A stretch of 34,229 bases of DNA from Desulfobacterales bacterium. Lineage in GTDB: Bacteria > Desulfobacterota > Desulfobacteria > Desulfobacterales > B30-G6. Positions 7,561 to 19,068 of the stretch are shown piece after piece (position 1 is the stretch's first letter; each line of letters starts with the position of its first letter). A program made the translations under genes and the position numbers. Under the pieces are notes generated by a model. The model was not told the DNA's origin. It saw nothing but the letters and a program-made list of their open reading frames with translations, and did no database searches. The stretch covers positions 1 to 34,229 of the forward strand of contig JAOZSO010000001.1 of assembly GCA_029939655.1 (NCBI GenBank). Direction: 5' to 3'.

Positions 7561-8811
7561 ATGAAAGATGTTGTTATTGCATCGGCATGCAGGACCGCCA
7601 TCGGTGCATTCGGTGGAACCCTGCGGGACACTATCGCCTCAGAAATTGCCAGAGTTACCATGCAGGAAGCCATAGACCGAGCCGGTATCGATCCCGCAAC
7701 TATCGATGATGTGCGCTACGGCTGCTGTTTGGAACCGGTGGACACATTGAATGTCGCCCGAACAGCTGCGTTATTGGCCGGTATACCCGACACTGTTCCC
7801 GCCGTAACCATCAACCGTGTGTGCATTTCGAGCATGGAAGCAACCATCTCCGGGATGGCTATGATTCAGGCCGGCATGGCCGATATCATTCTTGCCGGGG
7901 GTGTCGAACACATGTCCGGGGTCCCGTATGTCGTTCCGGCCGCCCGCTGGGGATGTCGCCTCCAGGATCAGGTCTTCGTGGACGCCTTGATTCGCAGCCT
8001 GCATTGTGGTTCCCATGTGATACCCCACCCTGAAAACGGCCCGGTGAATGCAGAAGAGCCCCCCTTAAGCTATTTTAAAGGGAAGCCTTATATCATGGGC
8101 CATACAGCAGAGTTTGTGGCCCAGCAGTATGGCATCACCCGGGAGGAGATGGATGAAGTGGCCCTGAGAAGTCATAACAATGTAGAGCGGTCAACCCAGG
8201 ATGGTTCGTTCAAGGAAGAAACCGTACCCATGAAAATTCCCCAACGAAAAAAAGATCCCATTCTGTTTGATAAGGATGAACACTTCAGACCGGGGATGAC
8301 CATGGAAAAGCTTCAGAAACTGCCATCCGTCTTTATCCCCAAAACCGGCAAGGTTACGGCAGGAAACTCAAGTGGTATCAATGACGGTTCGGCCGGAATG
8401 GTGATTATGTCTGCCGAAAAAGCCGCAACGCTCAACATCCAACCCCTGGCAAAAATCAAGGCCGTCGGAAAAGGAGCCTGTCATCCCTCGGTCATGGGCA
8501 TGTCGCCTGTTCCGGCCGTTCAGGACCTGATGACACGCAGTGGTCTGAAAATTGAGGATTTCGAACTCGTTGAAGTGAACGAAGCATTTGCCGCCCAGTA
8601 TATCGGTTGCGAAAGAGAGTTGGGATTGAACCGGGATATCACGAATGTCAATGGCTCGGGAATCGGTCTTGGACACCCGGTCGGCGCCACCGGTGCCCGT
8701 ATCATCGTCTCCCTGATCTACGCTATGAAACAGCGAGGAAAAACACTGGGGCTGGCCACCCTCTGTGGCGGTGGGGGCGTGTCCATGGCGTGTGCTATCG
8801 AGATGGTTTAA
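7561..8811 (+). CDS. Thiolase (acetyl-CoA C-acetyl/acyltransferase)
   Basis: Active-site Cys context NRVCISSMEA. C-terminal thiolase signatures NGSGIGLGHPVGATGARI and CGGGGVSMACAIE. SD gaaagga lies upstream of the ATG. Confidence 0.9.
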   Translation: MKDVVIASACRTAIGAFGGTLRDTIASEIARVTMQEAIDRAGIDPATIDDVRYGCCLEPVDTLNVARTAALLAGIPDTVPAVTINRVCISSMEATISGMAMIQAGMADIILAGGVEHMSGVPYVVPAARWGCRLQDQVFVDALIRSLHCGSHVIPHPENGPVNAEEPPLSYFKGKPYIMGHTAEFVAQQYGITREEMDEVALRSHNNVERSTQDGSFKEETVPMKIPQRKKDPILFDKDEHFRPGMTMEKLQKLPSVFIPKTGKVTAGNSSGINDGSAGMVIMSAEKAATLNIQPLAKIKAVGKGACHPSVMGMSPVPAVQDLMTRSGLKIEDFELVEVNEAFAAQYIGCERELGLNRDITNVNGSGIGLGHPVGATGARIIVSLIYAMKQRGKTLGLATLCGGGGVSMACAIEMV

Positions 8812-8830
8812 GACGAGGGTACAAGGATTT

Positions 8831-9017
8831 GAGGGGGAAACCAGGGTTGGAGGGGAAATACATCGGTTTAGGTTTTAGGTATTAGGTATTAGGTTCAACT
8901 AAGAGCAGACAGCTATCAGCAGCAATAAATGACGCCTGAAGGGCAAATATCATCCGGAGGATAAATGACACGCGCAGCGTAAATCTCGCGTGTAACGCAA
9001 ATAAAAGCTATGGCTTG
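8831..9017 (+). repeat. Composite intergenic repeat, copy R2 (G-rich module, TTAGG-type tandem, 5 x 18-bp units)
   Basis: gagggggaaaccagggttggaggggaaa is followed by ggtttaggttttaggtattaggtattaggtt and then agctatcagcagca. 18-bp units begin at 8928, 8946, 8964, 8982 and 9000. It aligns module-for-module with R4. Confidence 0.85.
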
Positions 9018-9066
9018 AAGCGACCCTACATTCTTTAGGCAGCAATAAAAATAAAGGAGCCGTCCC

Positions 9067-11715
9067 ATGAAAAATCTCTTCAAAACAATTTTGCATGATC
9101 GCCATGTCGACCTGGGTGCCCAGATGGTCGAATTCGGGGGCTGGGTCATGCCCATACAGTATCCACAGGGAATTGTCCGGGAACACCTTGCAACAAGACG
9201 GCATGCCGGTCTTTTTGATGTGTCGCATATGGGCCGATTCACTCTCCGTGGTCAGGATGCGCTGCCGTTTTTACAGCATGTCCTTTCCAACAATGCCGTC
9301 GGACTTGAGGAGGGAGAAAGTCAGTATACCTTGATTCCAAATGATCGCGGCGGCGCCATCGACGATGCCTATCTCTATCGCTTTCATGCAGATGAATACC
9401 TGCTGGTGGTCAATGCCGGCAACCGTCTCAAAGACTGGGATCACTTTCAGTCATCTCTGCCTGATTTCAAAAATGTCATCATGGAGGATAAAACCAAAGA
9501 CATATCCATGCTGAGCCTGCAGGGATCGACTTCCAAAGACATACTTCAAAAGATAATGGACACCGGCGCTCTTCCGGAACCCATGCGAAACCATCTCAGC
9601 ATTGCCACCATTCAAGGTAGAAAAGTATTGATCGCGCGCACGGGATACACCGGGGAACCCCTCTGCTTTGAACTGTTCATCGACAGTGCTGACACACCCG
9701 GTATCTGGGATCTGCTGATGGATCAGGGCGCCCACCCTGTTGGACTGGGTGCGCGGGACACTCTCAGACTTGAAGCAGGTCTTCCGCTGTACGGACACGA
9801 ACTGGGAATGGATCCGGACAATAAGGAAATCCCGATCTACGCGTCGCCTCTGTCAAGGTTTGCTGTGAGTCTGTCTCCTTTAAAAAAAGACTTCATCGGT
9901 CGAAATGCCCTTGAAAAGCAATTTGAAGCATTTAAAAAAATTGCTGACCGGGACTATTCCCTCATTCATGACCTCCCTCGCTGCATCATGCCGGTGGCAT
10001 TGAAAAAAAAGAGCGTAGCCCGTGCCGGATACAAGGTTTTTCAGGGTAATCGTCATGTCGGATATGTCACCAGCGGCACCATGATTCCGAGATGGGAGAT
10101 CGAGGGAGAAGGCATCTTCTCGAAATTGACCGAGAATCATGGTCTCAGAGGAATCTGCCTGGCACTGGTAGACAGCACGCTGGTGGAAGGCGACGACATC
10201 GAGATCGAAATCCGGTCAAAACAGGTGCCGGCGGTTATCGTTCCCTTTCATATGCGAAGCGAAGCACCGCCCTTTGCCAGGTCTATCCCCTGGGACAGGA
10301 TTGGGCAGGAAAAGGGACCGTCAGGAAAAGAGGAAATATCCAAAAACGTTCAATCTCTTCTCATAAAATCGATTCGAAATACAGAATGGCGGCAAAAGGA
10401 GTGCATCAACCTCATCCCGTCAGAACAGACCCAGTCCGAACTCATACGCTTGCTCTCCATCATGGACCCCTGCGGACGGTATGCTGAACACAAGCAGGTA
10501 AGTGCATTCAGTGAAGCCGAGGTTTTTTATTACCAGGGAACCGATTTCATTGCCGAAGTCGAGGCAAAACTCGAAACAGAGTTAAAAAAGTTTTTTGGGT
10601 GTCAGCAGGTCGAAACCCGACTGGTCTCGGGCCAGATGGCCAATATGGCCCTGTTCAGCGCACTGGTGGACTATATCAATCGAGCCGACCGGAAAAGTGA
10701 GCAACGACGACTCAGGAAAGTGATGAACAACCATATCATCAAAGGCGGCCATCTGAGTGCACAGCCCATGGGAGCGTTGAGAGACTTTGTGGCCCGGGAC
10801 CCCTTGTCTGAAAAACCGGCTGTGGTAAACTTTCCGGTCCTGCCCGAGAACCCCTATAAAATTGACCTGAGTGCCTGCGAGACTCTCATCCAAAAACATG
10901 AACCGGAACTTATTATCTTTGGCAAAAGTATGGTCCTCCACAAGGAGCCCGTCACAGAAGTTCGTCGAATAATCAATGGTCTGGGAATTGATTCGGTTAT
11001 CATGTACGATATGGCTCACGTTCTGGGCCTGGTAGGCCCCCACTTTCAGGAGCCATTTAAAGAAGGAGCGGATTTCATAACAGGATCTACCCATAAAACC
11101 TTTTTCGGGACACAACGGGGTATCATCGGCACGGATATCACGGATGAAGACCCCCGGTTCGAACTGTGGGAAGCCGTAAAACGCCGGGCATTCCCCGGAA
11201 GTGTCAGCAATCATCACCTGGGAACGATTTTAGGACTCCTGATGGCGACATACGAGATGAACCATTTCAAAGATGAATACCCTAAAAAAGTGCTCGACAA
11301 TGCACGCGTCTTCGCCAAAGCATTGAACGACTGCGGATTGAGCGTGGCCGGCGATCCGGAAATCTCTTTTACAGAAACCCACCAGGTTATACTCAACGTC
11401 GGCTATGCAAAGGGGCCTGCGATCGCCAGGAAACTGGAAGAGAACAACCTCATCGTCAACTACCAGGCAGCCCCGGTGGAAGAAGGTTTTACGGCTTCCG
11501 GATCTCTTCGCATGGGTGTACAGGAAATGACACGTTTTGGCATGGAGGCTACGGATTTCGAAGAACTGGCGCAATTCTTCAAGGATGTTCTGGTGGATAA
11601 CCGGACCGTCAAGGAAGCCGTTATATCGTTTCGAAACCGTTTTTTAGAGATGAAATACTGTTTTACAACGGATCAGGTCGGTGATAAAATCCAGAAATTG
11701 CATGAACTACTATAA
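9067..11715 (+). CDS. gcvT: Fusion protein: glycine-cleavage T protein (aminomethyltransferase) N-terminal half plus serine hydroxymethyltransferase-like PLP domain C-terminal half
   Basis: Residues 1 to about 420 are GcvT-like (HAGLFDVSHMGRF, EYLLVVNAGN, GARDTLRLEAGLPLYGHEL). Residues about 440-882 are SHMT-like (NLIPSEQ, VSGQMANMALF, YDMAHVLGLVG, PLP-lysine motif GSTHKTFFGTQRG). It is a single uninterrupted 882-aa ORF with an AAGGAG SD. Confidence 0.85.
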   Translation: MKNLFKTILHDRHVDLGAQMVEFGGWVMPIQYPQGIVREHLATRRHAGLFDVSHMGRFTLRGQDALPFLQHVLSNNAVGLEEGESQYTLIPNDRGGAIDDAYLYRFHADEYLLVVNAGNRLKDWDHFQSSLPDFKNVIMEDKTKDISMLSLQGSTSKDILQKIMDTGALPEPMRNHLSIATIQGRKVLIARTGYTGEPLCFELFIDSADTPGIWDLLMDQGAHPVGLGARDTLRLEAGLPLYGHELGMDPDNKEIPIYASPLSRFAVSLSPLKKDFIGRNALEKQFEAFKKIADRDYSLIHDLPRCIMPVALKKKSVARAGYKVFQGNRHVGYVTSGTMIPRWEIEGEGIFSKLTENHGLRGICLALVDSTLVEGDDIEIEIRSKQVPAVIVPFHMRSEAPPFARSIPWDRIGQEKGPSGKEEISKNVQSLLIKSIRNTEWRQKECINLIPSEQTQSELIRLLSIMDPCGRYAEHKQVSAFSEAEVFYYQGTDFIAEVEAKLETELKKFFGCQQVETRLVSGQMANMALFSALVDYINRADRKSEQRRLRKVMNNHIIKGGHLSAQPMGALRDFVARDPLSEKPAVVNFPVLPENPYKIDLSACETLIQKHEPELIIFGKSMVLHKEPVTEVRRIINGLGIDSVIMYDMAHVLGLVGPHFQEPFKEGADFITGSTHKTFFGTQRGIIGTDITDEDPRFELWEAVKRRAFPGSVSNHHLGTILGLLMATYEMNHFKDEYPKKVLDNARVFAKALNDCGLSVAGDPEISFTETHQVILNVGYAKGPAIARKLEENNLIVNYQAAPVEEGFTASGSLRMGVQEMTRFGMEATDFEELAQFFKDVLVDNRTVKEAVISFRNRFLEMKYCFTTDQVGDKIQKLHELL

Positions 11716-11720
11716 GAGAC

Positions 11721-11806
11721 AGACTGTAGGCTGTTAGACTGTTAGGCTATTAGCCGCCTAATCGTCTAACAGCCTAATAGCCTAAAAACCTAAACAACCT
11801 AAAACC
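11721..11806 (-). repeat. Composite repeat, copy R3 (nested palindromes plus reversed CCTAAA module)
   Basis: A perfect 13-bp inverted repeat taggctgttagac / gtctaacagccta lies at 11727-11739 and 11764-11776. An internal palindrome ggctattagcc lies at 11745-11755. cctaaaaacctaaacaacctaaaacc (11781-11806) is the reverse complement of the TTTAGG module of R1, R2 and R4. Confidence 0.75.
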
Positions 11807-11826
11807 TTTTTTTATAGGAGACCGTC

Positions 11827-12225
11827 ATGAAAGAATTGAGTGAGCTGAATTTTCCGGACGATGTCATGTATACCGACGATCACGAATGGACAAAAATGGA
11901 AAATGACGAGGCCATCATCGGCATCAGCGACTATGCACAGGATCAATTGGGAGACATCGTTTTTGTCGAACTGCCCCAGGTTGGCGAGACGTTTGAAAAG
12001 GGTGCCGAGTTTGGAACGGTGGAATCAGTCAAAGCCGTATCAGAACTGTTCCTGCCTGTGAGCGGCGAGATTGTTGCCGTCAATGACGCACTGGAAGACA
12101 CGCCTGAACTGCTCAACAATGAACCCTATACCGGGGGATGGATGCTCCGGATCAAGCTCAGTGAAAAATCTGAATTTGACCAGCTGATGAATAAAAACGC
12201 CTATCTCGAATCATTGAAGGGGTGA
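11827..12225 (+). CDS. gcvH: Glycine cleavage system H protein (lipoyl carrier)
   Basis: 132 aa. Lipoyl-lysine motif ESVKAVSE. Typical YTDDHEW N-terminus. Confidence 0.95.
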   Translation: MKELSELNFPDDVMYTDDHEWTKMENDEAIIGISDYAQDQLGDIVFVELPQVGETFEKGAEFGTVESVKAVSELFLPVSGEIVAVNDALEDTPELLNNEPYTGGWMLRIKLSEKSEFDQLMNKNAYLESLKG

Positions 12226-12229
12226 TAAC

Positions 12230-13564
12230 ATGAGATATTTACCGCACACGCAAGAAGATATCGCCGATATGCTGAAAAAAATCGGCGCCGGCAGTCTGGA
12301 TGATCTGTTTACATCCATTCCGGATGACTGCCGCAGAAAATCAGACCTCGATCTGCCGCAAGCCAAGACCGAATGGGAACTGAACCGGCACATGAGCGGA
12401 CTGGCTGAACAAATGGCGGTCTGCCCGGATTACAAGGTGTTCATCGGTGCCGGCAGTTATGATCATTACATTCCAGAGGTGATCAAACAGCTTTTGGGCA
12501 GGTCAGAGTTTTTCACAGCCTATACCCCCTATCAACCGGAAATGAGCCAGGGCACGCTTCAAGCCATTTATGAATACCAGACGCTTACCACCCGCCTTCT
12601 GGGGTTGGACGTGGCCAATGCCTCCATGTATGACGGGGCTTCCTCTCTGGCGGAAGCGCTCCTGATGTCCGTCCGGATCACCCGGCGAAAAAAGGTAGCT
12701 ATTTCCCGTCTCATCCATCCCCTGTATCGGCAAGTGGTTCGAACCTACTTCGCACCCACAGAGTTCGAAGTTGTCGAACTTCCTGTTCTGGAATCCGGTC
12801 AAACAGACATGACCGGCCTCCAGGATCTCGAGACCTTTGCAGGCGTGGCAGTTCAATCACCCAACTATTTTGGATGCATCGAGAACTTGAGTGCCCTTGG
12901 AGAAAAAATCCATTCGGACAACAAAACACTCTTCATCGTCTCTTTCACGGAGCCCCTTGCCTATGGCATATTAAAAAACCCCGGCAGTCTCGGTGCCGAC
13001 ATTGCCTGTGGTGAGGGACAGAGCCTCGGTGTTCCCAGCTCTTTCGGCGGTCCCGGTCTTGGCATGTTTGCAGCCAAAAAGACCTACATGAGAAATATGC
13101 CCGGCCGACTCGTTGGCCGGACACAGGATATTGAAGGCAAAAGAGGTTTTGTTTTGACCCTCTCCACCAGAGAGCAACACATTCGCCGGGAAAAAGCCAC
13201 CTCGAACATCTGCTCCAATCAGGGGTTATGTGCCACGGCCGCAGCCATGTATATGGCAACCCTGGGAGGCACCGGCATTCGAAAACTGGCGGAATTGAAC
13301 CATGACAAAGCCGCTTATCTCCAAAATGAATTGAAAACTGCCGGGTTTGAAGTTCCCTTTGATACACCTGTCTTCAATGAGTTTGTTATCAAATTTCCAG
13401 AGGGCTTTGAGAAAACCTATGCAAACCTGCTGGCCAAAAAAATAGTACCGGGGCTTTCGCTGACACCGGATTATCCGGAGTTTCCCGATTACTATCTGTT
13501 GTGTGTGACTGAAACCATGGACAAAGCGGATATGGACCTGCTGGTCAAGGAGGTGACATCATGA
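12230..13564 (+). CDS. gcvPA: Glycine dehydrogenase (decarboxylating) subunit 1
   Basis: 444 aa. The N-terminal MRYLPHT..DI..ML pattern is typical of split P-protein subunit 1. It lies directly after gcvH and overlaps gcvPB by 4 nt (ATGA). Confidence 0.9.
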   Translation: MRYLPHTQEDIADMLKKIGAGSLDDLFTSIPDDCRRKSDLDLPQAKTEWELNRHMSGLAEQMAVCPDYKVFIGAGSYDHYIPEVIKQLLGRSEFFTAYTPYQPEMSQGTLQAIYEYQTLTTRLLGLDVANASMYDGASSLAEALLMSVRITRRKKVAISRLIHPLYRQVVRTYFAPTEFEVVELPVLESGQTDMTGLQDLETFAGVAVQSPNYFGCIENLSALGEKIHSDNKTLFIVSFTEPLAYGILKNPGSLGADIACGEGQSLGVPSSFGGPGLGMFAAKKTYMRNMPGRLVGRTQDIEGKRGFVLTLSTREQHIRREKATSNICSNQGLCATAAAMYMATLGGTGIRKLAELNHDKAAYLQNELKTAGFEVPFDTPVFNEFVIKFPEGFEKTYANLLAKKIVPGLSLTPDYPEFPDYYLLCVTETMDKADMDLLVKEVTS

Positions 13565-15015
13565 AAGATCTCATGGGATCCACCGGTCTGATACTCAATG
13601 AACCCCTTTTGTGGGAAAAGGGTAAAAAAGGACGGACCGGGTTCTCTTTGCCTAATAGCGATGTCCCGTCATCCCCGCTGGTTGAAGAACTGATCGGGGT
13701 AGGGCCTGATTTCCCCGACCTGAGCGAGGTCGATGTCGTGAGACATTACACGCATCTTTCCACCTGGAACTTCGGGGTCGACAGCGGTATGTACCCCCTG
13801 GGGTCCTGCACCATGAAGTACAATCCCAAAACCAATGAACGCCAGGCATCACTGCCGGGCCTTGCCCAGGCGCATCCCTTGCTGCCGCCGGAATTGGCCC
13901 AGGGCGTTCTCAGAATCATGTTTGATCTCGAGAAACATCTGGCCGAAATCACAGGGCTGCCGGCCGTCACGTTGCAACCGGCCGCCGGTGCCCAGGGAGA
14001 GCTCACAGGCATGCTCCTGTTTTACGCTTTTCACATGATGAACAAAGAAAGGCGAACCAAAATTCTCATACCGGACACGGCCCACGGTACCAACCCTGCA
14101 AGTGCCGCCCTGTGTGGTTTCCGATCGATTTCCGTTGCATCCAATGCACAGGGTGTTCTTTCACCGGACGATGTGGATGCCCTCATGGATGAGGACACGG
14201 CAGGCATCATGGTCACGAACCCGAACACACTGGGTCTTTTTGAAGAACACATCAAACAGATATCGGACATCGTACATGCCAAAGGCGGCCTGGTATACGC
14301 AGACGGCGCCAACATGAACGCCGTGATGGGTATGGTTAACATGGCGGACCTCGGAGTGGATGTGCTGCACCTCAACCTCCACAAGACATTTTCGACTCCC
14401 CATGGTGGCGGTGGACCGGGCAGTGGACCGGTTTGCGTCACAAAAAAACTCGAACCCTTTCTGCCGGTGCCCAGAGTAGTTCATGTCCAGGGCAGGTATG
14501 AACTCTCTTATGATTTCCCGGAATCGATCGGCAAAGTTCACGCATTTTACGGAAATTTCGGGATTCAAATTCGGGCCTATTCCTATATCCTTTCCATGGG
14601 CGACCAGTTGAAAACAGCAAGTCAACTGGCGGTGCTGAACGCCAATTATCTGAAAGAGAGCCTCCGGGACATTTTTCACTTGCCCTATGACAGGCCCTGT
14701 ATGCATGAATGTGTCTTCACGGACAAATATCAACAAGTATACAAGGTAAGCACCCTCGACATTGCCAAGCGACTGATAGACTACGGTTTTCATCCACCCA
14801 CCGTCTATTTCCCTCTCGTGGTCCAGGGTGCTTTGATGATGGAGCCCACGGAAACGGAATCCAAAGAGGATCTCGATCGCTTTATCGAAGCCTTGAGGCA
14901 GATTGCCCAGGAAGCCAAAGACAATCCGGATTTGCTGCTGCAGGCCCCTGTCAAAACCAAGGTCCGGCGACTGGACGAAACCATGGCGGCACGAAAGCCC
15001 TGTCTTGCCGGTTAA
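13561..15015 (+). CDS. gcvPB: Glycine dehydrogenase (decarboxylating) subunit 2
   Basis: 484 aa. PLP-lysine motif HLNLHKTFSTPHGGGGPG. TAA stop at 15013-15015. Confidence 0.95.
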   Translation: MKDLMGSTGLILNEPLLWEKGKKGRTGFSLPNSDVPSSPLVEELIGVGPDFPDLSEVDVVRHYTHLSTWNFGVDSGMYPLGSCTMKYNPKTNERQASLPGLAQAHPLLPPELAQGVLRIMFDLEKHLAEITGLPAVTLQPAAGAQGELTGMLLFYAFHMMNKERRTKILIPDTAHGTNPASAALCGFRSISVASNAQGVLSPDDVDALMDEDTAGIMVTNPNTLGLFEEHIKQISDIVHAKGGLVYADGANMNAVMGMVNMADLGVDVLHLNLHKTFSTPHGGGGPGSGPVCVTKKLEPFLPVPRVVHVQGRYELSYDFPESIGKVHAFYGNFGIQIRAYSYILSMGDQLKTASQLAVLNANYLKESLRDIFHLPYDRPCMHECVFTDKYQQVYKVSTLDIAKRLIDYGFHPPTVYFPLVVQGALMMEPTETESKEDLDRFIEALRQIAQEAKDNPDLLLQAPVKTKVRRLDETMAARKPCLAG

Positions 15016-15022
15016 CCCGGAC

Positions 15023-15769
15023 ATGGTAAGACAACAGTCGCCCACACCGATACAAACCTGCTGGTGCTTGGATCTCCAGACAATGGATTATTCAGAAGCC
15101 TGGGAATTTCAACAGGCCATCGTCAGGGACAGCATTGGGAAAAAAAATTCCCGGGATATCATTCTGCTTGTAGAACACCCCCCGGTTTTTACACTGGGTC
15201 GCAGGGGGGGAATTGAAAATTTGACAGTCTCCGATGCCTTTCTGAAAACATCAGGCATACAGGTCATACAGGTGGAAAGGGGCGGGGACATCACATATCA
15301 CGGTCCCGGCCAGATGGTGATCTATCCGATCCTGGATCTGGATCGTCAACGACTCGGCATCACGGAACTGGTTTTTATGCTCGAAGAAATCATGATCCGT
15401 GTTTCCGAATCCCTCGGGGTCCAGGCTACGCGAAATCCCAGGAATCGCGGTGTGTGGGTCGGGGACAAAAAACTTGGCAGCGTTGGTCTTGCCGTCCGAA
15501 AGGGAATCAGTTTTCATGGAATAGCTCTGAACGTCAACCTTTCCATGACGCCCTTCAAATGGATTCATCCCTGCGGTCTTATGAATATTTCCATGACTTC
15601 CCTCGCAAGAGAACTTCCCCAAAGACCTTCCATGCAAACAGTGCGGGAACTAACAAAAAAACATTTAGGGGATGTTTTCGGACTACAGTTGGAAGAAGTA
15701 TCTCGGGAAATGTTGGGTGAAAAGATAGGGGGCAAGGGGAAAAACAACGTGTTAAGTTTTAGGTTTTAA
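15023..15769 (+). CDS. lipB: Octanoyltransferase (lipoyl(octanoyl) transferase)
   Basis: RGGDITYHGPGQ and the catalytic Cys context IHPCGL are present. The ATG at 15023 follows the gcvPB stop, whereas the track start at 14903 overlaps gcvPB. The last ~13 codons (GGKGKNNVLSFRF) are encoded by modules of repeat R4. Confidence 0.85.
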   Translation: MVRQQSPTPIQTCWCLDLQTMDYSEAWEFQQAIVRDSIGKKNSRDIILLVEHPPVFTLGRRGGIENLTVSDAFLKTSGIQVIQVERGGDITYHGPGQMVIYPILDLDRQRLGITELVFMLEEIMIRVSESLGVQATRNPRNRGVWVGDKKLGSVGLAVRKGISFHGIALNVNLSMTPFKWIHPCGLMNISMTSLARELPQRPSMQTVRELTKKHLGDVFGLQLEEVSREMLGEKIGGKGKNNVLSFRF

Positions 15770-15921
15770 GTGTTAGGTAAGTCCCAAGCTATCAGCGACA
15801 ATAAATTACGCCCGCAGGGCTAATGACCATAAATAACAGCCGGAGGCGTAATGTCGCGCGCAGCGCAAATGTCGTCCGCAGGACAAATATCGCCCGGAGA
15901 ACAAATGTCACACGAAGTACC
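15728..15921 (+). repeat. Composite intergenic repeat, copy R4 (G-rich module, TTTAGG tandem, ~6 x 18-bp units)
   Basis: gggggcaaggggaaaaacaacgtgttaagttttaggttttaagtgttaggtaag is followed by agctatcagcgaca. 18-bp units begin at 15804, 15832, 15850, 15868, 15886 and 15904, with a 10-bp partial at 15822. Confidence 0.85.
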
Positions 15922-16771
15922 AGCAAAACCAGCATGGCTGAAGCGGCGCCTGCCCGCGGGATCGGGTTTTGAAAAGGTTCGTGCGCTTATCGATAATTGC
16001 CACTTGCACACGGTTTGTCAGGAAGCCAAATGTCCCAACATCTGGGAATGTTTTTCCCGGCAAACTGCCACATTCCTCATCCTGGGAGACCGCTGCACCC
16101 GAAATTGCCGATTCTGCGCCGTTGCCCAAGGGCCTGAAAAGCTGCCCGACCCGGATGAGCCTGAACATGTGGCCTCCGCGGTTCACCAGCTGAAACTTGC
16201 CTATGTGGTTATTACCTCCGTTACCCGGGATGATTTGCCGGACGGCGGTGCACATCATTTTGCAAGGACGATTCAAGCGGTAAGGAATCGATGCCCCAAG
16301 GTCGGTATCGAGGTGCTGATACCCGATTTTCAGGGAAACCATGACGCATGGCAGACCATACTCGAATCACGACCTGACGTTATTAATCACAACCTGGAAA
16401 CCATCCAGCGTCTTTACCCGACGGTCAGACCGGAAGCGGATTACAGTCAATCTCTCGATCTTATCCGGTATGTAGCGGACAACAATAGGAACATCTCTAC
16501 CAAATCCGGACTCATGCTCGGGCTGGGAGAAACAAGAAAGGAAGTTGTGACGGTCTTTGCAGATCTCATCCAGGCCGGATGCCATCTCCTGACTCTGGGC
16601 CAATACCTGCAACCCAGCAAGGATCATCTCCCGGTGGCCCGTTATGTGCCGCCAGAGGAATTTAATGCGTTGAAAAAAAAGGCCCTTGAAATGGGTTTCA
16701 GCGATGTTGCCGCTGATCCGTTTGTGCGCAGTTCCTATCGAGCCAAGGAACTTTTTAGCGGTAAGTCTTAA
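15905..16771 (+). CDS. lipA: Lipoyl synthase (radical SAM)
   Basis: CQEAKCPNIWEC auxiliary-cluster motif and CTRNCRFC radical-SAM motif. KPAWLKRRLP is a typical LipA N-terminus. The upstream in-frame ATGs at 15851 and 15869 lie in the 18-bp repeat units, so I prefer 15905. Confidence 0.9.
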   Translation: MSHEVPAKPAWLKRRLPAGSGFEKVRALIDNCHLHTVCQEAKCPNIWECFSRQTATFLILGDRCTRNCRFCAVAQGPEKLPDPDEPEHVASAVHQLKLAYVVITSVTRDDLPDGGAHHFARTIQAVRNRCPKVGIEVLIPDFQGNHDAWQTILESRPDVINHNLETIQRLYPTVRPEADYSQSLDLIRYVADNNRNISTKSGLMLGLGETRKEVVTVFADLIQAGCHLLTLGQYLQPSKDHLPVARYVPPEEFNALKKKALEMGFSDVAADPFVRSSYRAKELFSGKS

Positions 16772-16809
16772 GCGATAAGCGGTATACTGCTTCTTGGGAA
16801 TAAGTATAT

Positions 16810-17021
16810 ACATTCGGTCGAGTATTTTCAATATATGTTTTTTTATTATACTGCCTGGATGAGTGGGACGTCTTATCATTTTTCGCATAATTCAATCTCC
16901 TAAGGATAGTCATCATAATTGACAACATATGCGTCTCCATCGATGAAATTAAAGAATAAACACCAATTGCCGGATACTTTGACTGCATGAAGGCTTTTAG
17001 ATTTACAAATTCAATCATCAC
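16810..17021 (-). pseudogene. Possible degraded higB/higA-type toxin-antitoxin remnant
   Basis: The ORF from 17021 begins MIEFVNLKAF...MMTILRRLNYAKN, which is loosely like the HigB killer-protein N-terminal half. A second frame from 16888 begins MRKMIRRPTHPGSIIKKHILK, which resembles the P-x-HPGE-x-L N-terminus of HigA antidotes. That second frame then runs into lipA antisense with no HTH domain. Similarity was judged by eye only. Confidence 0.3.
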
Positions 17022-17631
17022 ACATTGGCTATGGCGGCGATGTTTTGATTTAGCTCGAATTATGTTAACTATCTGAACTCACGGATATATTATGCTGTGT
17101 TACATAATCTTTAATTGGGAGGGGTCGCCAATTTTGATGTAATCTTCAATTTGCGAAGATACGACAGTATCGAAGACTTAAAACGCAAATCGTTTCAAGA
17201 ACAAAACACAAAAGGAAATGAAAAAAATATTGTGAAGCCCCTTTTTAAGGCGAAACTGTATTCCATTGGGTGAAGGGAGGTCATATAAGAGAATCCGCCG
17301 GTTGCGGTTTCTCGGTATTGGGAAGGTAGTGCCCAACCGGTTTCCTTCAATTATGCGTTGCCTATTCATATATAGTACTAATATCTTATTAAAAAAAGAA
17401 TCATTGTATTATAGACATTAGACATAAGATTTTCTGAATTTGGACTGTGTGCACCTTTTATTATAAATATATAAGTAATAAGAAGGATATCTAAGAATAT
17501 AAAACCTCCCAAAATAGCGAGATAGCAATCTATTTTTTCCTTGCAAGATATTTTCTTATATATATCACTCATCATGAACCTAATTTAGTCTATTGGCACG
17601 GTATACTTGAATATGGCTGATTAGTGTTCAG

Positions 17632-19068
17632 TTATATTTCACATTCATTTATAATTGCTTCCATTGCATCTTCTGCTCCTTCTGGTAAAGCCATCGGCTT
17701 GTGGTTCTTGATAAGAAATCTGGCTTTTTCATACGCCCTTTCGATAATGTCTTTCCCACCGATTTTTTTAACCCAGGTATCGCGGTCCATACAATCAAAC
17801 AAATCTCTTTGGGACATGCTTTTCATGTGTTTTAGTGTGTGTTTGCTAGATAAATATTCACCACCAGAGCTTACGCTTTGAATTGTTTCTAAAGCTATTG
17901 TCTCATCAGAAATGTCCATCCCATTTTTTATCCATTTTAAATTCCTTAATTGTTCAGCATCCAGAATCAGCTTTGCAAAATCAAACGTCAGTCCTGATTC
18001 AATAGAACCACATCCATAGATGACATTAGATCCGGCCAGTAATGCTATAGCCGTATTTGTGTTAAATTCATAAGCGGCCTGTACATCCATAAGTTTACTT
18101 CCGCTAACACCTGAACCACACCAACTTGGGATTCCATAATATTGCGCCATTTTTGCAGTCCCAACATTCAAAACACCACATTCTGGGGCAGCGACAGCAG
18201 GATTACCGAGTTTCAAATCCATAATTGTTCCCACACTACCATAAATGAAAGGTGTACTTTTTGAAGTAAGTTGGGTCAAAACTAAAGAACCAAGAAGTTC
18301 TGCATTCTGTACAACCAGGGTTCCAGCGATTGTCGTGGGCGCCGTAGCACCACTCAATGGCATCGTAATTGAACAAACCACAACACCTAATCTTGAGCAT
18401 TCTATAATGACATCACAGCAATTCTTAGAGAGTGTGAGTGGGCTAGTTGGGCAAACGGTGGTGGACACACAAGGACGCTTAATAAAATTCTCCATGCCAC
18501 CGACGCAGGCCGCTGCCATCTCAACAATCTTTATTGAGTTTCTCCCACTAAAAAAACCATGAAAGGCATGCTTACTTGTGTTTGAAACAATTGCTTCGTA
18601 ATTATGCATGGACTGCGTCTCGGCAGGCTTATCCCGTGATCCCATACATTTTTCAATAATTGCAAATTCATCTAACGCATCAGCCAATCGTGTTGCATCC
18701 CCTAAATCTTTCTTTGTACAAGTTCTGTGTTTTAAAGTGTAAAGGTCGTTAGTATAAGAATTTTCACCAAATAGTGTATAGCAGGAACTTCCAGGTTCGA
18801 TAAGATGATCGTGTTTGGGATCCCTTCCATACAAAACAAACCGTTCTGGTGCCCATTGAACACAATCACTAACTACGGATGGAGGAATCTTAACAACAAA
18901 ACAATCCCCCTTTTTAACAATCTCCGATCCAGCACCATGAAAGATCTCTGTTGCCTCATCTGACTCAATTTTTATCCCCGTATTTTCCAATATCTTAATA
19001 GATGCATGATGAATTCTATGAAGTTGTTCATTTGTAATCCCTTCTATTTGATATCCGAGCATATACAT
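17632..19068 (-). CDS. MttB-superfamily (COG5598) methyltransferase, non-pyrrolysine paralogue; probable quaternary-amine:corrinoid methyltransferase
   Basis: 478 aa, uninterrupted. It is colinear with the Pyl-type mttB below (CPTSPL, MPLSGATAPTTIAGTLVVQNAELLG, APECG). A sense Val codon (18106-18108) sits where mttB has TAG. Confidence 0.85.
   Translation of the reverse strand: MYMLGYQIEGITNEQLHRIHHASIKILENTGIKIESDEATEIFHGAGSEIVKKGDCFVVKIPPSVVSDCVQWAPERFVLYGRDPKHDHLIEPGSSCYTLFGENSYTNDLYTLKHRTCTKKDLGDATRLADALDEFAIIEKCMGSRDKPAETQSMHNYEAIVSNTSKHAFHGFFSGRNSIKIVEMAAACVGGMENFIKRPCVSTTVCPTSPLTLSKNCCDVIIECSRLGVVVCSITMPLSGATAPTTIAGTLVVQNAELLGSLVLTQLTSKSTPFIYGSVGTIMDLKLGNPAVAAPECGVLNVGTAKMAQYYGIPSWCGSGVSGSKLMDVQAAYEFNTNTAIALLAGSNVIYGCGSIESGLTFDFAKLILDAEQLRNLKWIKNGMDISDETIALETIQSVSSGGEYLSSKHTLKHMKSMSQRDLFDCMDRDTWVKKIGGKDIIERAYEKARFLIKNHKPMALPEGAEDAMEAIINECEI

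What the first reader, a model, noticed from the sequence alone, without database searches (positions are those of the whole stretch)
9067..11715. Single 882-aa ORF fusing glycine-cleavage T protein to an SHMT-like PLP domain
**What the sequence shows**
- The N-terminal half is a complete GcvT.
- After a linker of about 20-30 aa (..GQEKGPSGKEEISKN..), the C-terminal half has the SHMT fold signatures. These include the PLP lysine (STHK), SGQMAN and DMAH..GLV.

**Why it is of interest**
- GcvT releases or consumes 5,10-methylene-THF.
- SHMT uses the same cofactor species to interconvert glycine and serine.
- A covalent fusion would favour channelling of methylene-THF in either direction, that is glycine oxidation to serine or a reductive-glycine-type assimilation.
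- The gene heads a gcvH-PA-PB-lipB-lipA cluster next to a methyl-group-harvesting module.
- The SHMT-like domain is divergent: YYQG replaces YYGG and SEQ replaces SEN. Its real activity is therefore uncertain.
Basis: partly seen in the sequence, partly recalled or inferred. Interest (0 to 1): 0.6.

Follow-up and report, generated by a model that had tools for sequence, protein, structure and literature searches.

The report
Natural GcvT–SHMT fusion enzyme
One real, widely conserved gene joins the folate-dependent T protein of the glycine cleavage system to an archaeal-type serine hydroxymethyltransferase. In this group of sulfate-reducer relatives it seems to be the only T protein, yet databases call it just "GcvT" and no paper in the searched library describes it.

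Summary
Window 9067-11715 (+) is one uninterrupted 882-aa ORF with a Shine-Dalgarno site. It has a complete GcvT module, a fast-evolving linker of about 30 aa, and an SHMT-fold PLP module.

The "divergent" motifs (YYQG, FPGSVSNHH) are hallmarks of archaeal-type SHMT, not decay. The best solved relative is Methanocaldococcus jannaschii SHMT. The catalytic residues are invariant or nearly invariant across fusions that share only 33-55% identity. The SHMT module is at least as conserved as the GcvT module.

The fusion is old and widespread. It occurs in Desulfobacterota, Bacillota (Ca. Formimonas warabiya), Actinomycetota, Armatimonadota, Planctomycetota, SAR324 and an archaeal MAG. Adjacent split forms also exist.

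Among 151 sampled genomes of this order, every GcvT above NCBI's equivalog cut-off lies in the fusion frame. The genomes checked also keep a canonical glyA.

Glycine riboswitches precede the fusion in two distant lineages, which points to glycine consumption.

The most likely function is a bifunctional T-protein/SHMT that couples glycine cleavage to serine formation through methylene-THF. Channelling is untested.

No paper describing it was found. This scan had already flagged the same fusion in other genomes.

The parts
9055..9061 (+). Shine-Dalgarno AAAGGAG, 6 nt before the start codon
   Evidence: sequence read
9067..11715 (+). Whole fusion ORF, 882 aa plus stop (P0001)
9067..10266 (+). GcvT (aminomethyltransferase, T protein) module, residues 1 to about 400. 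D99, D100, N116, R230 and R234 are invariant among the fusions.
   Evidence: Pfam GCV_T and GCV_T_C. TIGR00528 and NF001567 are above their cut-offs. Foldseek target-normalised TM (TMt) is 0.89 to T. maritima T protein 1wos.
10267..10362 (+). Inter-domain linker, residues about 401-432. It evolves fast and has lower model confidence.
   Evidence: Identity to other fusions is 3-84% here, against 33-94% in the two modules. pLDDT is 65-79 around residues 400-420.
10363..11712 (+). Archaeal-type SHMT-fold PLP module, residues 433-882
   Evidence: Pfam SHMT scores 115.8 bits. PDB phmmer best hit is M. jannaschii SHMT 4uqv/4bhd at 180.7 bits. Foldseek target-normalised TM (TMt) is 0.87-0.88. Tree.
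11095..11097 (+). Codon of Lys677, the predicted PLP Schiff-base lysine in S-T-H-K
   Evidence: The position follows. K677 is kept in at least 90% of fusions, and S674 and H676 are invariant.
11827..12225 (+). gcvH (lipoyl carrier H protein)
   Evidence: Pfam GCV_H, E 1.5e-42
12230..13564 (+). gcvPA (P protein subunit 1)
   Evidence: Pfam GDC-P, E 1.2e-131
13561..15015 (+). gcvPB (P protein subunit 2)
   Evidence: Pfam GcvP2_C and GDC-P
14903..15769 (+). lipB-type octanoyl/lipoyl transferase. These are the ORF limits. The true start is probably downstream of the gcvPB stop, because the Pfam match begins at residue 62.
   Evidence: Pfam LplA-B_cat, E 1.2e-44
15851..16771 (+). lipA (lipoyl synthase, radical SAM)
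   Evidence: Pfam Radical_SAM and LIAS_N

Best explanation
The gene encodes a bifunctional enzyme.

**N-terminal module.** It is the T protein of this organism's glycine cleavage system, and apparently the only one. It takes the aminomethyl group from lipoyl-H protein and, with tetrahydrofolate, releases NH3 and 5,10-methylene-THF.

**C-terminal module.** It is a catalytically competent PLP-dependent serine hydroxymethyltransferase of an archaeal-like lineage. Here it most likely uses THF, not H4MPT. It interconverts glycine + methylene-THF and serine + THF.

**Combined reaction.** Fused through a linker of about 30 residues, the two modules share a local methylene-THF/THF pool. With H, P and L proteins the net reaction favoured is 2 glycine -> serine + CO2 + NH3 + 2[H]. 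THF is regenerated next to the T site.

**Likely role in this organism.** This would dispose of glycine made from methylated amines. The genome carries several DMGDH/sarcosine-dehydrogenase-type proteins and MttB-family methyltransferases.

**Shown here:** the fusion, the identity of the domains, conservation of catalytic residues, distribution, T-protein exclusivity in the sampled order, and glycine-riboswitch control in two other lineages.

**Inferred:** SHMT activity, THF as cofactor, net direction, and any physical channelling.
For: 1. **The GcvT module passes the equivalog cut-offs**. It is the only strong GcvT in the 93.6%-complete MAG. The other GCV_T hits are DAO-FAO_M-GCV_T dehydrogenase-type proteins.
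2. **In the sampled order, bona fide GcvT exists only as the fusion.** Among 151 genomes, all 50 with TIGR00528 above its cut-off carry it in the roughly 880-975-aa fusion frame. The only exceptions are frames cut at contig ends (cross-checked).
3. **The SHMT module keeps the catalytic set.**
   - Present: S452-E453, Y472, Y489, S521-G522, G560-G561-H562, D648, H651, S674-T675-H676-K677, R815.
   - These are invariant or at least 90% conserved across 36 fusions down to 33% identity.
4. **The SHMT module is under constraint.** It is more conserved than the GcvT module in 29 of 35 comparisons, and in tblastn of other loci.
5. **Its closest solved relative is a characterised SHMT.** M. jannaschii SHMT (4uqv/4bhd) is the best hit by sequence (180.7 bits) and by fold (TMt 0.87-0.88). 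PMC3697235 reports it as a normal SHMT mechanistically.
6. **Split forms exist.** A gcvT gene followed 18 nt later by the SHMT-like gene was found, identically arranged in the three contigs shown out of 15 that carry it. This is a Rosetta-stone type link.
7. **Glycine riboswitches precede the fusion in two distant lineages**. This indicates induction by excess glycine.
   - A tandem glycine riboswitch lies directly upstream in Ca. Formimonas warabiya.
   - A single aptamer heads the fusion operon in a Thermoleophilia MAG.
8. **The host has a THF marker but not the H4MPT marker tested.** FTHFS is present, and MCH was not found.
9. **The model predicts a defined domain arrangement.** AF2 gives pLDDT 91.1 and pTM 0.87 for the whole 882 aa.
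Against: - **No biochemical data exist** for any member.
- **The module fails NCBI's GlyA subfamily cut-off** (238 against 335).
- **It has clade-specific changes near the folate site:**
  - N-Y-Q replaces N-K-N.
  - SEQ/SEM replaces SEN.
  - There is an insert of about 10 aa between the two catalytic tyrosines. This insert has low pLDDT.
  - There is an insert of about 12 aa after SGQMAN.
- **Its nearest characterised relative uses H4MPT, not THF**.
- **A route from serine to pyruvate is not evident.** No Fe-S L-serine dehydratase alpha domain was found in the MAG.
- **The gcvH/P neighbourhood is not universal.** Many fusion genes elsewhere do not sit next to gcvH/P.
- **Fusion alone does not show channelling.** In the serine-to-glycine and the reductive directions the two modules do not pass a product to each other.
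- **One fusion representative (P0125) has His in place of the PLP lysine**.
Confidence: 0.6

Rival explanations
1. The chemistry is the same but the physiological direction is opposite. The fusion serves a reductive-glycine-type or serine-forming assimilation. Both modules would consume methylene-THF made from formate/CO2 or from methyl groups. The T protein would run in the glycine-synthase direction, and SHMT would then make serine.
For: - GCS and SHMT are reversible (established biochemistry).
- A stand-alone member of the fusion clade (P0139) lies directly behind an NAD-linked formate dehydrogenase. It shares a gene string with an aminotransferase, a PALP enzyme and a GDC-P fragment.
- The window has a methyl-harvesting module next door.
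- FTHFS is present.
Against: - Glycine riboswitches ahead of the fusion in two lineages fit glycine disposal better. Such riboswitches typically switch gcvT operons on at high glycine (own knowledge).
- The genome holds several glycine-yielding DMGDH/sarcosine-dehydrogenase-type proteins.
- In this direction fusion gives no product hand-over.
Confidence: 0.17
2. The C-terminal module is an active PLP enzyme but not an SHMT proper. It might be a folate-independent beta-hydroxy-amino-acid aldolase or transaldolase, or an enzyme acting on another small amino acid that feeds or drains the glycine pool.
For: - It scores below the GlyA cut-off.
- The SHMT fold also hosts threonine transaldolases. 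ObiH (7k34) scores 96.5 bits, and the fluorothreonine transaldolase model scores 141 bits.
- The canonical folate-contacting N-K-N is changed to N-Y-Q, and two clade-specific inserts lie near the active site.
- The genome already has two other SHMTs.
Against: - It is far closer to true archaeal SHMT than to transaldolases.
- It keeps the glutamate of the SE motif, both tyrosines, the G-G-H-L folate/PLP wall and the carboxylate-binding arginine.
- It is permanently tied, fused or adjacent, to a folate enzyme whose product is SHMT's substrate.
Confidence: 0.12
3. The SHMT-like module is mainly structural or regulatory. As an obligate dimer it would dimerise the T protein, scaffold a stable glycine cleavage complex, or sense serine/glycine, with little catalytic turnover.
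For: - SHMTs are obligate dimers (established knowledge).
- The whole-protein model has a high pTM, which suggests a fixed domain arrangement.
- One divergent fusion lacks the PLP lysine.
Against: - The full catalytic residue set is almost entirely conserved over deep divergence.
- The module is more conserved than the catalytic GcvT module.
Confidence: 0.05
4. The single ORF is an assembly or frameshift artefact that joins two genes.
For: - The MAG is fragmented into 543 contigs.
- Some records show two overlapping genes (L092; L020, L022 and L024).
Against: The same in-frame fusion recurs in dozens of independent genomes, including closed chromosomes, and in more than 100 metagenome clusters.
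Confidence: 0.01

Closest known systems
Glycine cleavage system T protein GcvT (TIGR00528 / PF01571+PF08669; structures 1wos/1woo T. maritima, 1yx2 B. subtilis, 3a8i E. coli)
   Same: - The N-terminal 400 residues pass the equivalog cut-offs.
- They share the fold (TMt 0.89).
- The gene sits in front of gcvH, gcvPA and gcvPB.
   Different: It carries an extra C-terminal PLP enzyme of about 450 aa, whereas canonical GcvT proteins are about 360 aa and stand alone. In the sampled Desulfobacterales no stand-alone GcvT above the cut-off was seen.
Methanocaldococcus jannaschii SHMT (PDB 4bhd, 4uqv), H4MPT-dependent archaeal SHMT
   Same: - It is the best solved relative by sequence (180.7 bits) and by fold (TMt 0.87-0.88, 32-33% identity).
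- It shares the Y-Q-G and FPGxVSNHH motifs and the whole PLP catalytic set.
   Different: - The fusion clade is a separate lineage beside archaeal SHMT, not inside it.
- It has two extra inserts, IPSE(Q/M) instead of IASEN, and N-Y-Q instead of N-K-N.
- The host lacks the H4MPT marker MCH and has FTHFS, so THF is the likely cofactor.
- It is fused to GcvT.
Bacterial GlyA (NF000586; E. coli 1dfo, G. stearothermophilus 1kkj)
   Same: Same fold type I PLP fold, and the same catalytic Lys, Asp, His, Tyr, Glu and Arg positions.
   Different: - It scores only 46-76 bits against bacterial GlyA of the same genomes.
- It is below the NCBIfam cut-off.
- Bona fide glyA is kept elsewhere in the own genome and in the three other fusion genomes checked.
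Functional GDC-SHMT coupling in plant mitochondria during photorespiration (separate enzymes, 2 Gly -> Ser + CO2 + NH3); own knowledge
   Same: The same pair of reactions, linked through methylene-THF.
   Different: There the proteins are separate. Here they are one polypeptide, or adjacent genes, in anaerobic bacteria.
DMGDH / sarcosine dehydrogenase / sarcosine oxidase alpha (DAO-FAO_M-GCV_T fusions; 4pab, 5l46, 1vrq)
   Same: These are natural fusions in which a GCV_T folate module captures a C1 unit made by a fused partner. Several copies exist in this genome.
   Different: In those, the partner is a flavin oxidase upstream of the folate module. Here the partner is a PLP enzyme that uses the folate product downstream.

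Membership tests
GcvT (glycine cleavage T protein) | Score above the curated equivalog/subfamily cut-offs | tested here: met
   TIGR00528 scores 274.5 against 235.85. NF001567 scores 318.6 against 300.
GcvT (glycine cleavage T protein) | T-protein three-domain fold | tested here: met
   The AF2 model (pLDDT 91) matches 1wos, 1woo and 1yx2 with TMt 0.89.
GcvT (glycine cleavage T protein) | Conserved acidic and Asn/Arg residues of the folate/aminomethyl site | tested here: inconclusive
   D99, D100, N116, R230 and R234 are invariant in 36 fusions. Their equivalence to E. coli D97/N113 rests on memory, not on a structure-based alignment made here.
GcvT (glycine cleavage T protein) | Genomic association with gcvH and gcvP | tested here: met
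   gcvH, gcvPA and gcvPB lie directly downstream. The same holds in L013, L017, L019 and L023.
GcvT (glycine cleavage T protein) | H-protein-dependent aminomethyl transfer to THF | not testable with these tools
   Needs an enzyme assay.
SHMT (PF00464 / GlyA) | Pfam SHMT above the gathering score over the full length | tested here: met
   115.8 bits against 27. Residues 433-837 cover profile positions 9-398 of 399.
SHMT (PF00464 / GlyA) | NCBIfam GlyA subfamily cut-off | tested here: not met
   NF000586 scores 238.4 against 335. It is not a canonical bacterial GlyA.
SHMT (PF00464 / GlyA) | PLP lysine in (S/T)-T-H-K-T, the PLP-binding Asp, and the stacking His | tested here: met
   K677 (at least 90% conserved); S674, H676 and D648 invariant; H562 at least 90% conserved.
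SHMT (PF00464 / GlyA) | Catalytic Glu, two Tyr, and the carboxylate-binding Arg | tested here: met
   E453 (at least 90% conserved); Y472, Y489 and R815 invariant. The mapping to E. coli E57/Y55/Y65/R363 is from memory.
SHMT (PF00464 / GlyA) | Canonical folate-contacting Asn of the N-K-N motif | tested here: not met
   Most fusion-clade members have N-x-Q (N-Y-Q here, Q800 at least 90% conserved). Bacterial and Hadarchaeota SHMTs have N-(K/R)-N. The role of this Asn is from memory.
SHMT (PF00464 / GlyA) | THF-dependent Ser/Gly interconversion | not testable with these tools
   Needs an enzyme assay.
Archaeal-type (H4MPT-dependent) SHMT | Closest sequence and fold relatives are archaeal SHMTs | tested here: met
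   - 4uqv scores 180.7 bits, against at most 83 bits for bacterial or eukaryotic SHMTs.
- Hadarchaeota SHMTs score 168-183 bits, against 46-76 bits for bacterial GlyA.
Archaeal-type (H4MPT-dependent) SHMT | Branches inside the archaeal SHMT clade | tested here: not met
   The fusion clade (SH-aLRT 100) and related stand-alone bacterial forms make a separate group beside the Hadarchaeota SHMTs. Only one archaeal phylum was sampled.
Archaeal-type (H4MPT-dependent) SHMT | Host makes or uses H4MPT | tested here: not met
   No MCH (PF02289) was found in the 93.6%-complete MAG, while FTHFS is present. Only a single marker was tested.

The most novel reading that the evidence does not exclude
The fusion would be a self-contained glycine-to-serine machine. 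A tightly bound (polyglutamyl) folate would cycle between the T site and the SHMT site without leaving the protein. The obligate SHMT dimer would form the core that organises H, P and L proteins into a stable complex. This would be a natural substrate-channelling solution that the loosely associated canonical glycine cleavage system lacks, and a ready-made part for synthetic reductive-glycine or photorespiratory-bypass designs.
Probability: 0.2. Interest if true: 0.75.

Novelty: new variant of a known kind. Interest (0 to 1): 0.55.

Why it matters
GCS and SHMT are the two central glycine/serine/C1 enzymes. Their coupling underlies photorespiration, glycine catabolism and the reductive glycine pathway now being engineered for formate- and CO2-based bioproduction.

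A natural, ancient fusion spread across several phyla offers three things:
- a direct system to test whether methylene-THF channelling between the two enzymes exists and pays off
- a correction to annotation, because thousands of proteins named only "GcvT" hide an SHMT, which affects metabolic reconstructions of sulfate reducers, SAR324, Planctomycetota and others
- an example of an archaeal-like SHMT lineage recruited into bacterial glycine metabolism alongside the housekeeping glyA

The sampled Desulfobacterales showed bona fide GcvT only as the fusion. This suggests the arrangement is the working form of the glycine cleavage system there, not a curiosity.

Tried and rejected
- **Glycine riboswitch upstream of this gene.** None at Rfam gathering scores over the whole window, and none at E <= 1 in 8750-9120. 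None in the eight other fusion loci scanned, mostly Desulfobacterota plus one Armatimonadota MAG.
- **H4MPT as cofactor.** No MCH was found in the genome. Rejected as the likelier cofactor, but only one marker was tested.
- **Promoter and terminator scan of 8700-17700.** Counts equal chance, so it says nothing on operon limits.
- **Serine dehydratase as downstream sink.** No SDH_alpha hit. PLP-type dehydratases were not searched.
- **CdhC search.** Negative, but the control rings only in archaea, so it is uninformative for bacterial acetyl-CoA synthase.
- **Conserved neighbourhood beyond the gcv genes.** Mostly none. The context of the stand-alone form in G417 was uninformative.
- **The search for homologous proteins with the C-module alone.** It returned mostly contig-end fragments of fusions, not stand-alone or archaeal relatives.
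- **Literature.** Five full-text searches found no description of the fusion. The search on Formimonas and glycine cleavage found only a comparative-genomics paper, which I did not open. The library lacks most subscription journals.
Full report
**1. Observation**

Window 9067-11715 (+) is one open frame of 882 codons plus a stop. An AAAGGAG ribosome-binding site lies 6 nt before the ATG.
- Pfam places GCV_T at residues 9-247 (E 1.7e-76), GCV_T_C at 361-393, and SHMT at 433-837, covering profile positions 9-398 of 399 (E 2.4e-33).
- The NCBIfam GcvT models are above their curated cut-offs: TIGR00528 at 274.5 against 235.85, and NF001567 at 318.6 against 300.
- The GlyA subfamily model is below its cut-off, at 238.4 against 335.
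- Downstream lie gcvH, gcvPA, gcvPB, a LipB-type transferase and lipA.
- Further on, on the minus strand, lies the pyrrolysine methylamine methyltransferase module (PYLIS hits).

**2. Not an artefact, and not rare**
- The 120 best database hits are all 828-934 aa (nearly all 880-890) and 64-97% identical. All carry PF01571 and PF00464, and nearly all also PF08669. Where named, they are called only "aminomethyltransferase/GcvT".
- An exhaustive scan of cluster representatives at 50% identity found at least 11 further full-length fusion clusters, at 35-55% identity and 873-961 aa.
- Named genome records with the full fusion include:
  - Ca. Formimonas warabiya DCMF (complete chromosome)
  - Desulfatirhabdium, Desulfobacterales and Desulfatiglandales MAGs
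  - SAR324, Thermoleophilia, Armatimonadetes and Planctomycetota/Phycisphaerae MAGs
  - two gammaproteobacterial MAGs
  - a Ca. Woesearchaeota MAG
- In a sample of 151 genomes of the window's own order, 52 genomes (38 of 104 genera) have the C-module at E <= 1e-80.
  - It is always in a frame of about 880-975 aa, except for frames cut at contig ends.
  - One more distant hit is a 442-aa stand-alone form.
- Across the phylum, 30 of 301 genomes have it, concentrated in a few families.

**3. The fusion is the T protein here**
- In the MAG (543 contigs, 93.6% complete), the only strong match to the N-module is the fusion itself.
- The other GCV_T hits are frames of 815-844 aa with DAO-FAO_M-GCV_T-GCV_T_C architecture, which is the dimethylglycine/sarcosine dehydrogenase type.
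- Across the 151 order genomes, TIGR00528 exceeds its cut-off in 50 genomes. Every one of those hits lies in the fusion frame. The only exceptions (G041, G086, G031) are frames cut at contig ends.
- In this sample, bona fide GcvT was therefore seen only as the fusion.

**4. What the C-module is**
- By sequence, the best solved relatives are M. jannaschii SHMT 4uqv/4bhd (180.7 bits). ObiH threonine transaldolase scores 96.5 bits, and bacterial or eukaryotic SHMTs score at most 83 bits.
- Hadarchaeota SHMTs score 168-183 bits against it. Bacterial GlyA from the same or other fusion-bearing genomes scores 46-76 bits.
- A maximum-likelihood tree was built (32 rows, LG+G4, quick search, rooted on bacterial GlyA).
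  - It separates bacterial GlyA by a long, fully supported branch.
  - It places the Hadarchaeota SHMTs beside a bacterial group. In that group, stand-alone forms (Schekmanbacteria, SAR324 and others) branch first.
  - A fully supported clade (SH-aLRT 100) holds all 14 fusions plus three stand-alone sequences.
- The "divergent" motifs are therefore lineage hallmarks. Y-Q-G and FPGxVSNHH are shared with M. jannaschii SHMT.
- The catalytic set is kept across 36 fusions down to 33% identity. It comprises SE, RYAE, YY, SG, GGHL, D..AH, S-T-H-K and the SGxR arginine.
- Clade-specific differences are:
  - IPSE(Q/M/N) for IASEN
  - an insert of about 10 residues between the two tyrosines
  - an insert of about 12 residues after SGQMAN
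  - N-x-Q for N-K-N
- The module is at least as constrained as the GcvT module. Mean identity is 63.0% against 59.5%, and it is higher in 29 of 35 comparisons. The linker (residues 401-432) drifts freely.
- An AlphaFold2 model built on the 36-sequence alignment has mean pLDDT 91.1 and pTM 0.87.
  - Foldseek matches the N half to T proteins (TMt 0.89) and the C half to M. jannaschii SHMT (TMt 0.87-0.88).
  - No PDB entry covers both halves (query-normalised TM at most 0.44).

**5. It is an extra SHMT, and probably THF-dependent**
- The MAG also has a canonical glyA (551.8 bits on Pfam) and a second SHMT (362.8 bits).
- Formimonas, the Armatimonadetes MAG and the Thermoleophilia MAG likewise keep canonical glyA genes at 513-581 bits beside the fusion.
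- M. jannaschii SHMT uses H4MPT (PMC3697235). This MAG shows no MCH but does have FTHFS, and the fused partner is a THF enzyme. THF is therefore the likelier cofactor. This step is inferred.

**6. Evidence for a functional link and for direction**
- *Split forms.* One lineage has gcvT (438 aa) followed 18 nt later by the SHMT-like gene (457 aa), arranged identically in the three contigs shown out of 15 that carry it. Another record shows two overlapping genes, which may be a frameshift.
- *Stand-alone clade member.* P0139 sits behind an NAD-linked formate dehydrogenase. It shares a gene string with an aminotransferase, a PALP enzyme and a GDC-P fragment.
- *Neighbourhood.* The fusion is next to gcvH-PA-PB(-lipB-lipA) in several Desulfobacterota and in an Armatimonadetes MAG, but not in many other genomes.
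- *Riboswitches.* A tandem glycine riboswitch lies directly upstream of the fusion in Ca. Formimonas warabiya (L018 7488-7573 and 7662-7765; the gene starts at 8001). A single aptamer heads an aminotransferase-fusion-transketolase-like operon in a Thermoleophilia MAG. This implies induction by glycine.
  - There is no riboswitch in this window.
  - There is also none in the eight other fusion loci scanned, which are mostly Desulfobacterota plus one Armatimonadota MAG.
- *Interpretation.* This genome has glycine-yielding DMGDH-type enzymes and MttB-family methyltransferases. Together these favour glycine disposal: the T module makes methylene-THF, and the SHMT module spends it on a second glycine to give serine and returns THF. 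Only in this direction does one module hand a product to the other.
- *Limits.* Physical channelling, the net direction in this organism and the fate of serine remain untested. No Fe-S serine dehydratase alpha domain was found.

**7. Comparison with the known, and novelty**
- Both halves belong to well-known enzyme families.
- Fusions of GCV_T modules to flavin oxidases (DMGDH, sarcosine oxidase) are known. Functional GDC-SHMT coupling between separate proteins is textbook in plant mitochondria (own knowledge).
- Five full-text searches found no description of a GcvT-SHMT fusion. The library lacks most subscription journals.
- Earlier agents of this scan flagged the same fusion in other genomes and read it the same way. 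My tests were independent of theirs and agree. Their glycine-riboswitch lead was tested here, with the result given above.
- I file it as a new variant of a known kind: real, conserved, mis-annotated and biochemically unstudied.

**8. Limits**
- The tree samples one archaeal phylum and used a quick search.
- The genome samples are MAG-rich and the genomes are related to each other.
- Residue-role assignments use E. coli numbering from memory.
- Model coordinates could not be inspected.

Noticed in passing
window 18009-18107 (-): A third Rfam PYLIS_3 (mttB pyrrolysine insertion element) match, at 40.5 bits against a gathering score of 38. It lies inside the MttB paralogue 17632-19068, which has no in-frame TAG. 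It may be a relic or simply sequence homology.
   Followed up: no
L015 6597-13073 and L012 5620-12013: In a Thermoleophilia MAG and a 'Xanthomonadales' MAG, the fusion is flanked by the same two genes. These are a class I/II aminotransferase and a transketolase-like TPP enzyme of about 780 aa. In L015 the string starts with a glycine riboswitch. It may be a glycine-to-serine-to-hydroxypyruvate type route.
   Followed up: partly
L093 1056-12154: A stand-alone member of the fusion SHMT clade (485 aa) is translationally coupled behind an NAD-linked formate dehydrogenase (Complex1_51K and molybdopterin subunits). It is followed by an epimerase, an aminotransferase, a PALP enzyme, an NAD kinase and a GDC-P fragment. 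This looks like a C1/glycine/serine gene string.
   Followed up: partly
L103 and L105 (SAR324 genome G153): This SAR324 genome showed no high-scoring bacterial-type glyA. Its best SHMT hits are 183 and 147 bits on Pfam. The former (435 aa) belongs to the archaeal-like lineage next to the fusion clade, so that lineage may serve as the housekeeping SHMT there.
   Followed up: partly
G000 contigs C214, C532, C472, C326 (L004, L006, L007, L008): The MAG has at least four paralogues of 815-844 aa. Two were checked by Pfam and have DAO-FAO_M-GCV_T-GCV_T_C architecture (DMGDH/sarcosine dehydrogenase type); the other two are inferred from frame size and GCV_T score. This is unusual for an anaerobe and fits heavy use of N-methylated glycine derivatives.
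   Followed up: partly
order sample: Many Desulfobacterales genomes without the fusion carry only sub-threshold GCV_T-family proteins. These are frames of about 430 aa and about 980-1030 aa, scoring 170-200 bits on TIGR00528. Their roles are unclear.
   Followed up: no
window 11721-11813 and 8831-9017: The spacers before and after the fusion gene are filled with short tandem and palindromic repeat modules (tagg/ctaa-type units, with a 13-bp inverted repeat at 11727-11776). No Rfam family and no above-chance terminator signal was found there. Other notes of this scan already cover them.
   Followed up: no
P0125 (fusion representative): One divergent fusion has S-A-H-H-T in place of S-T-H-K-T, which means no PLP lysine. 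Its letter composition is also atypical in the tree. It may be a degenerate or repurposed SHMT module.
   Followed up: no
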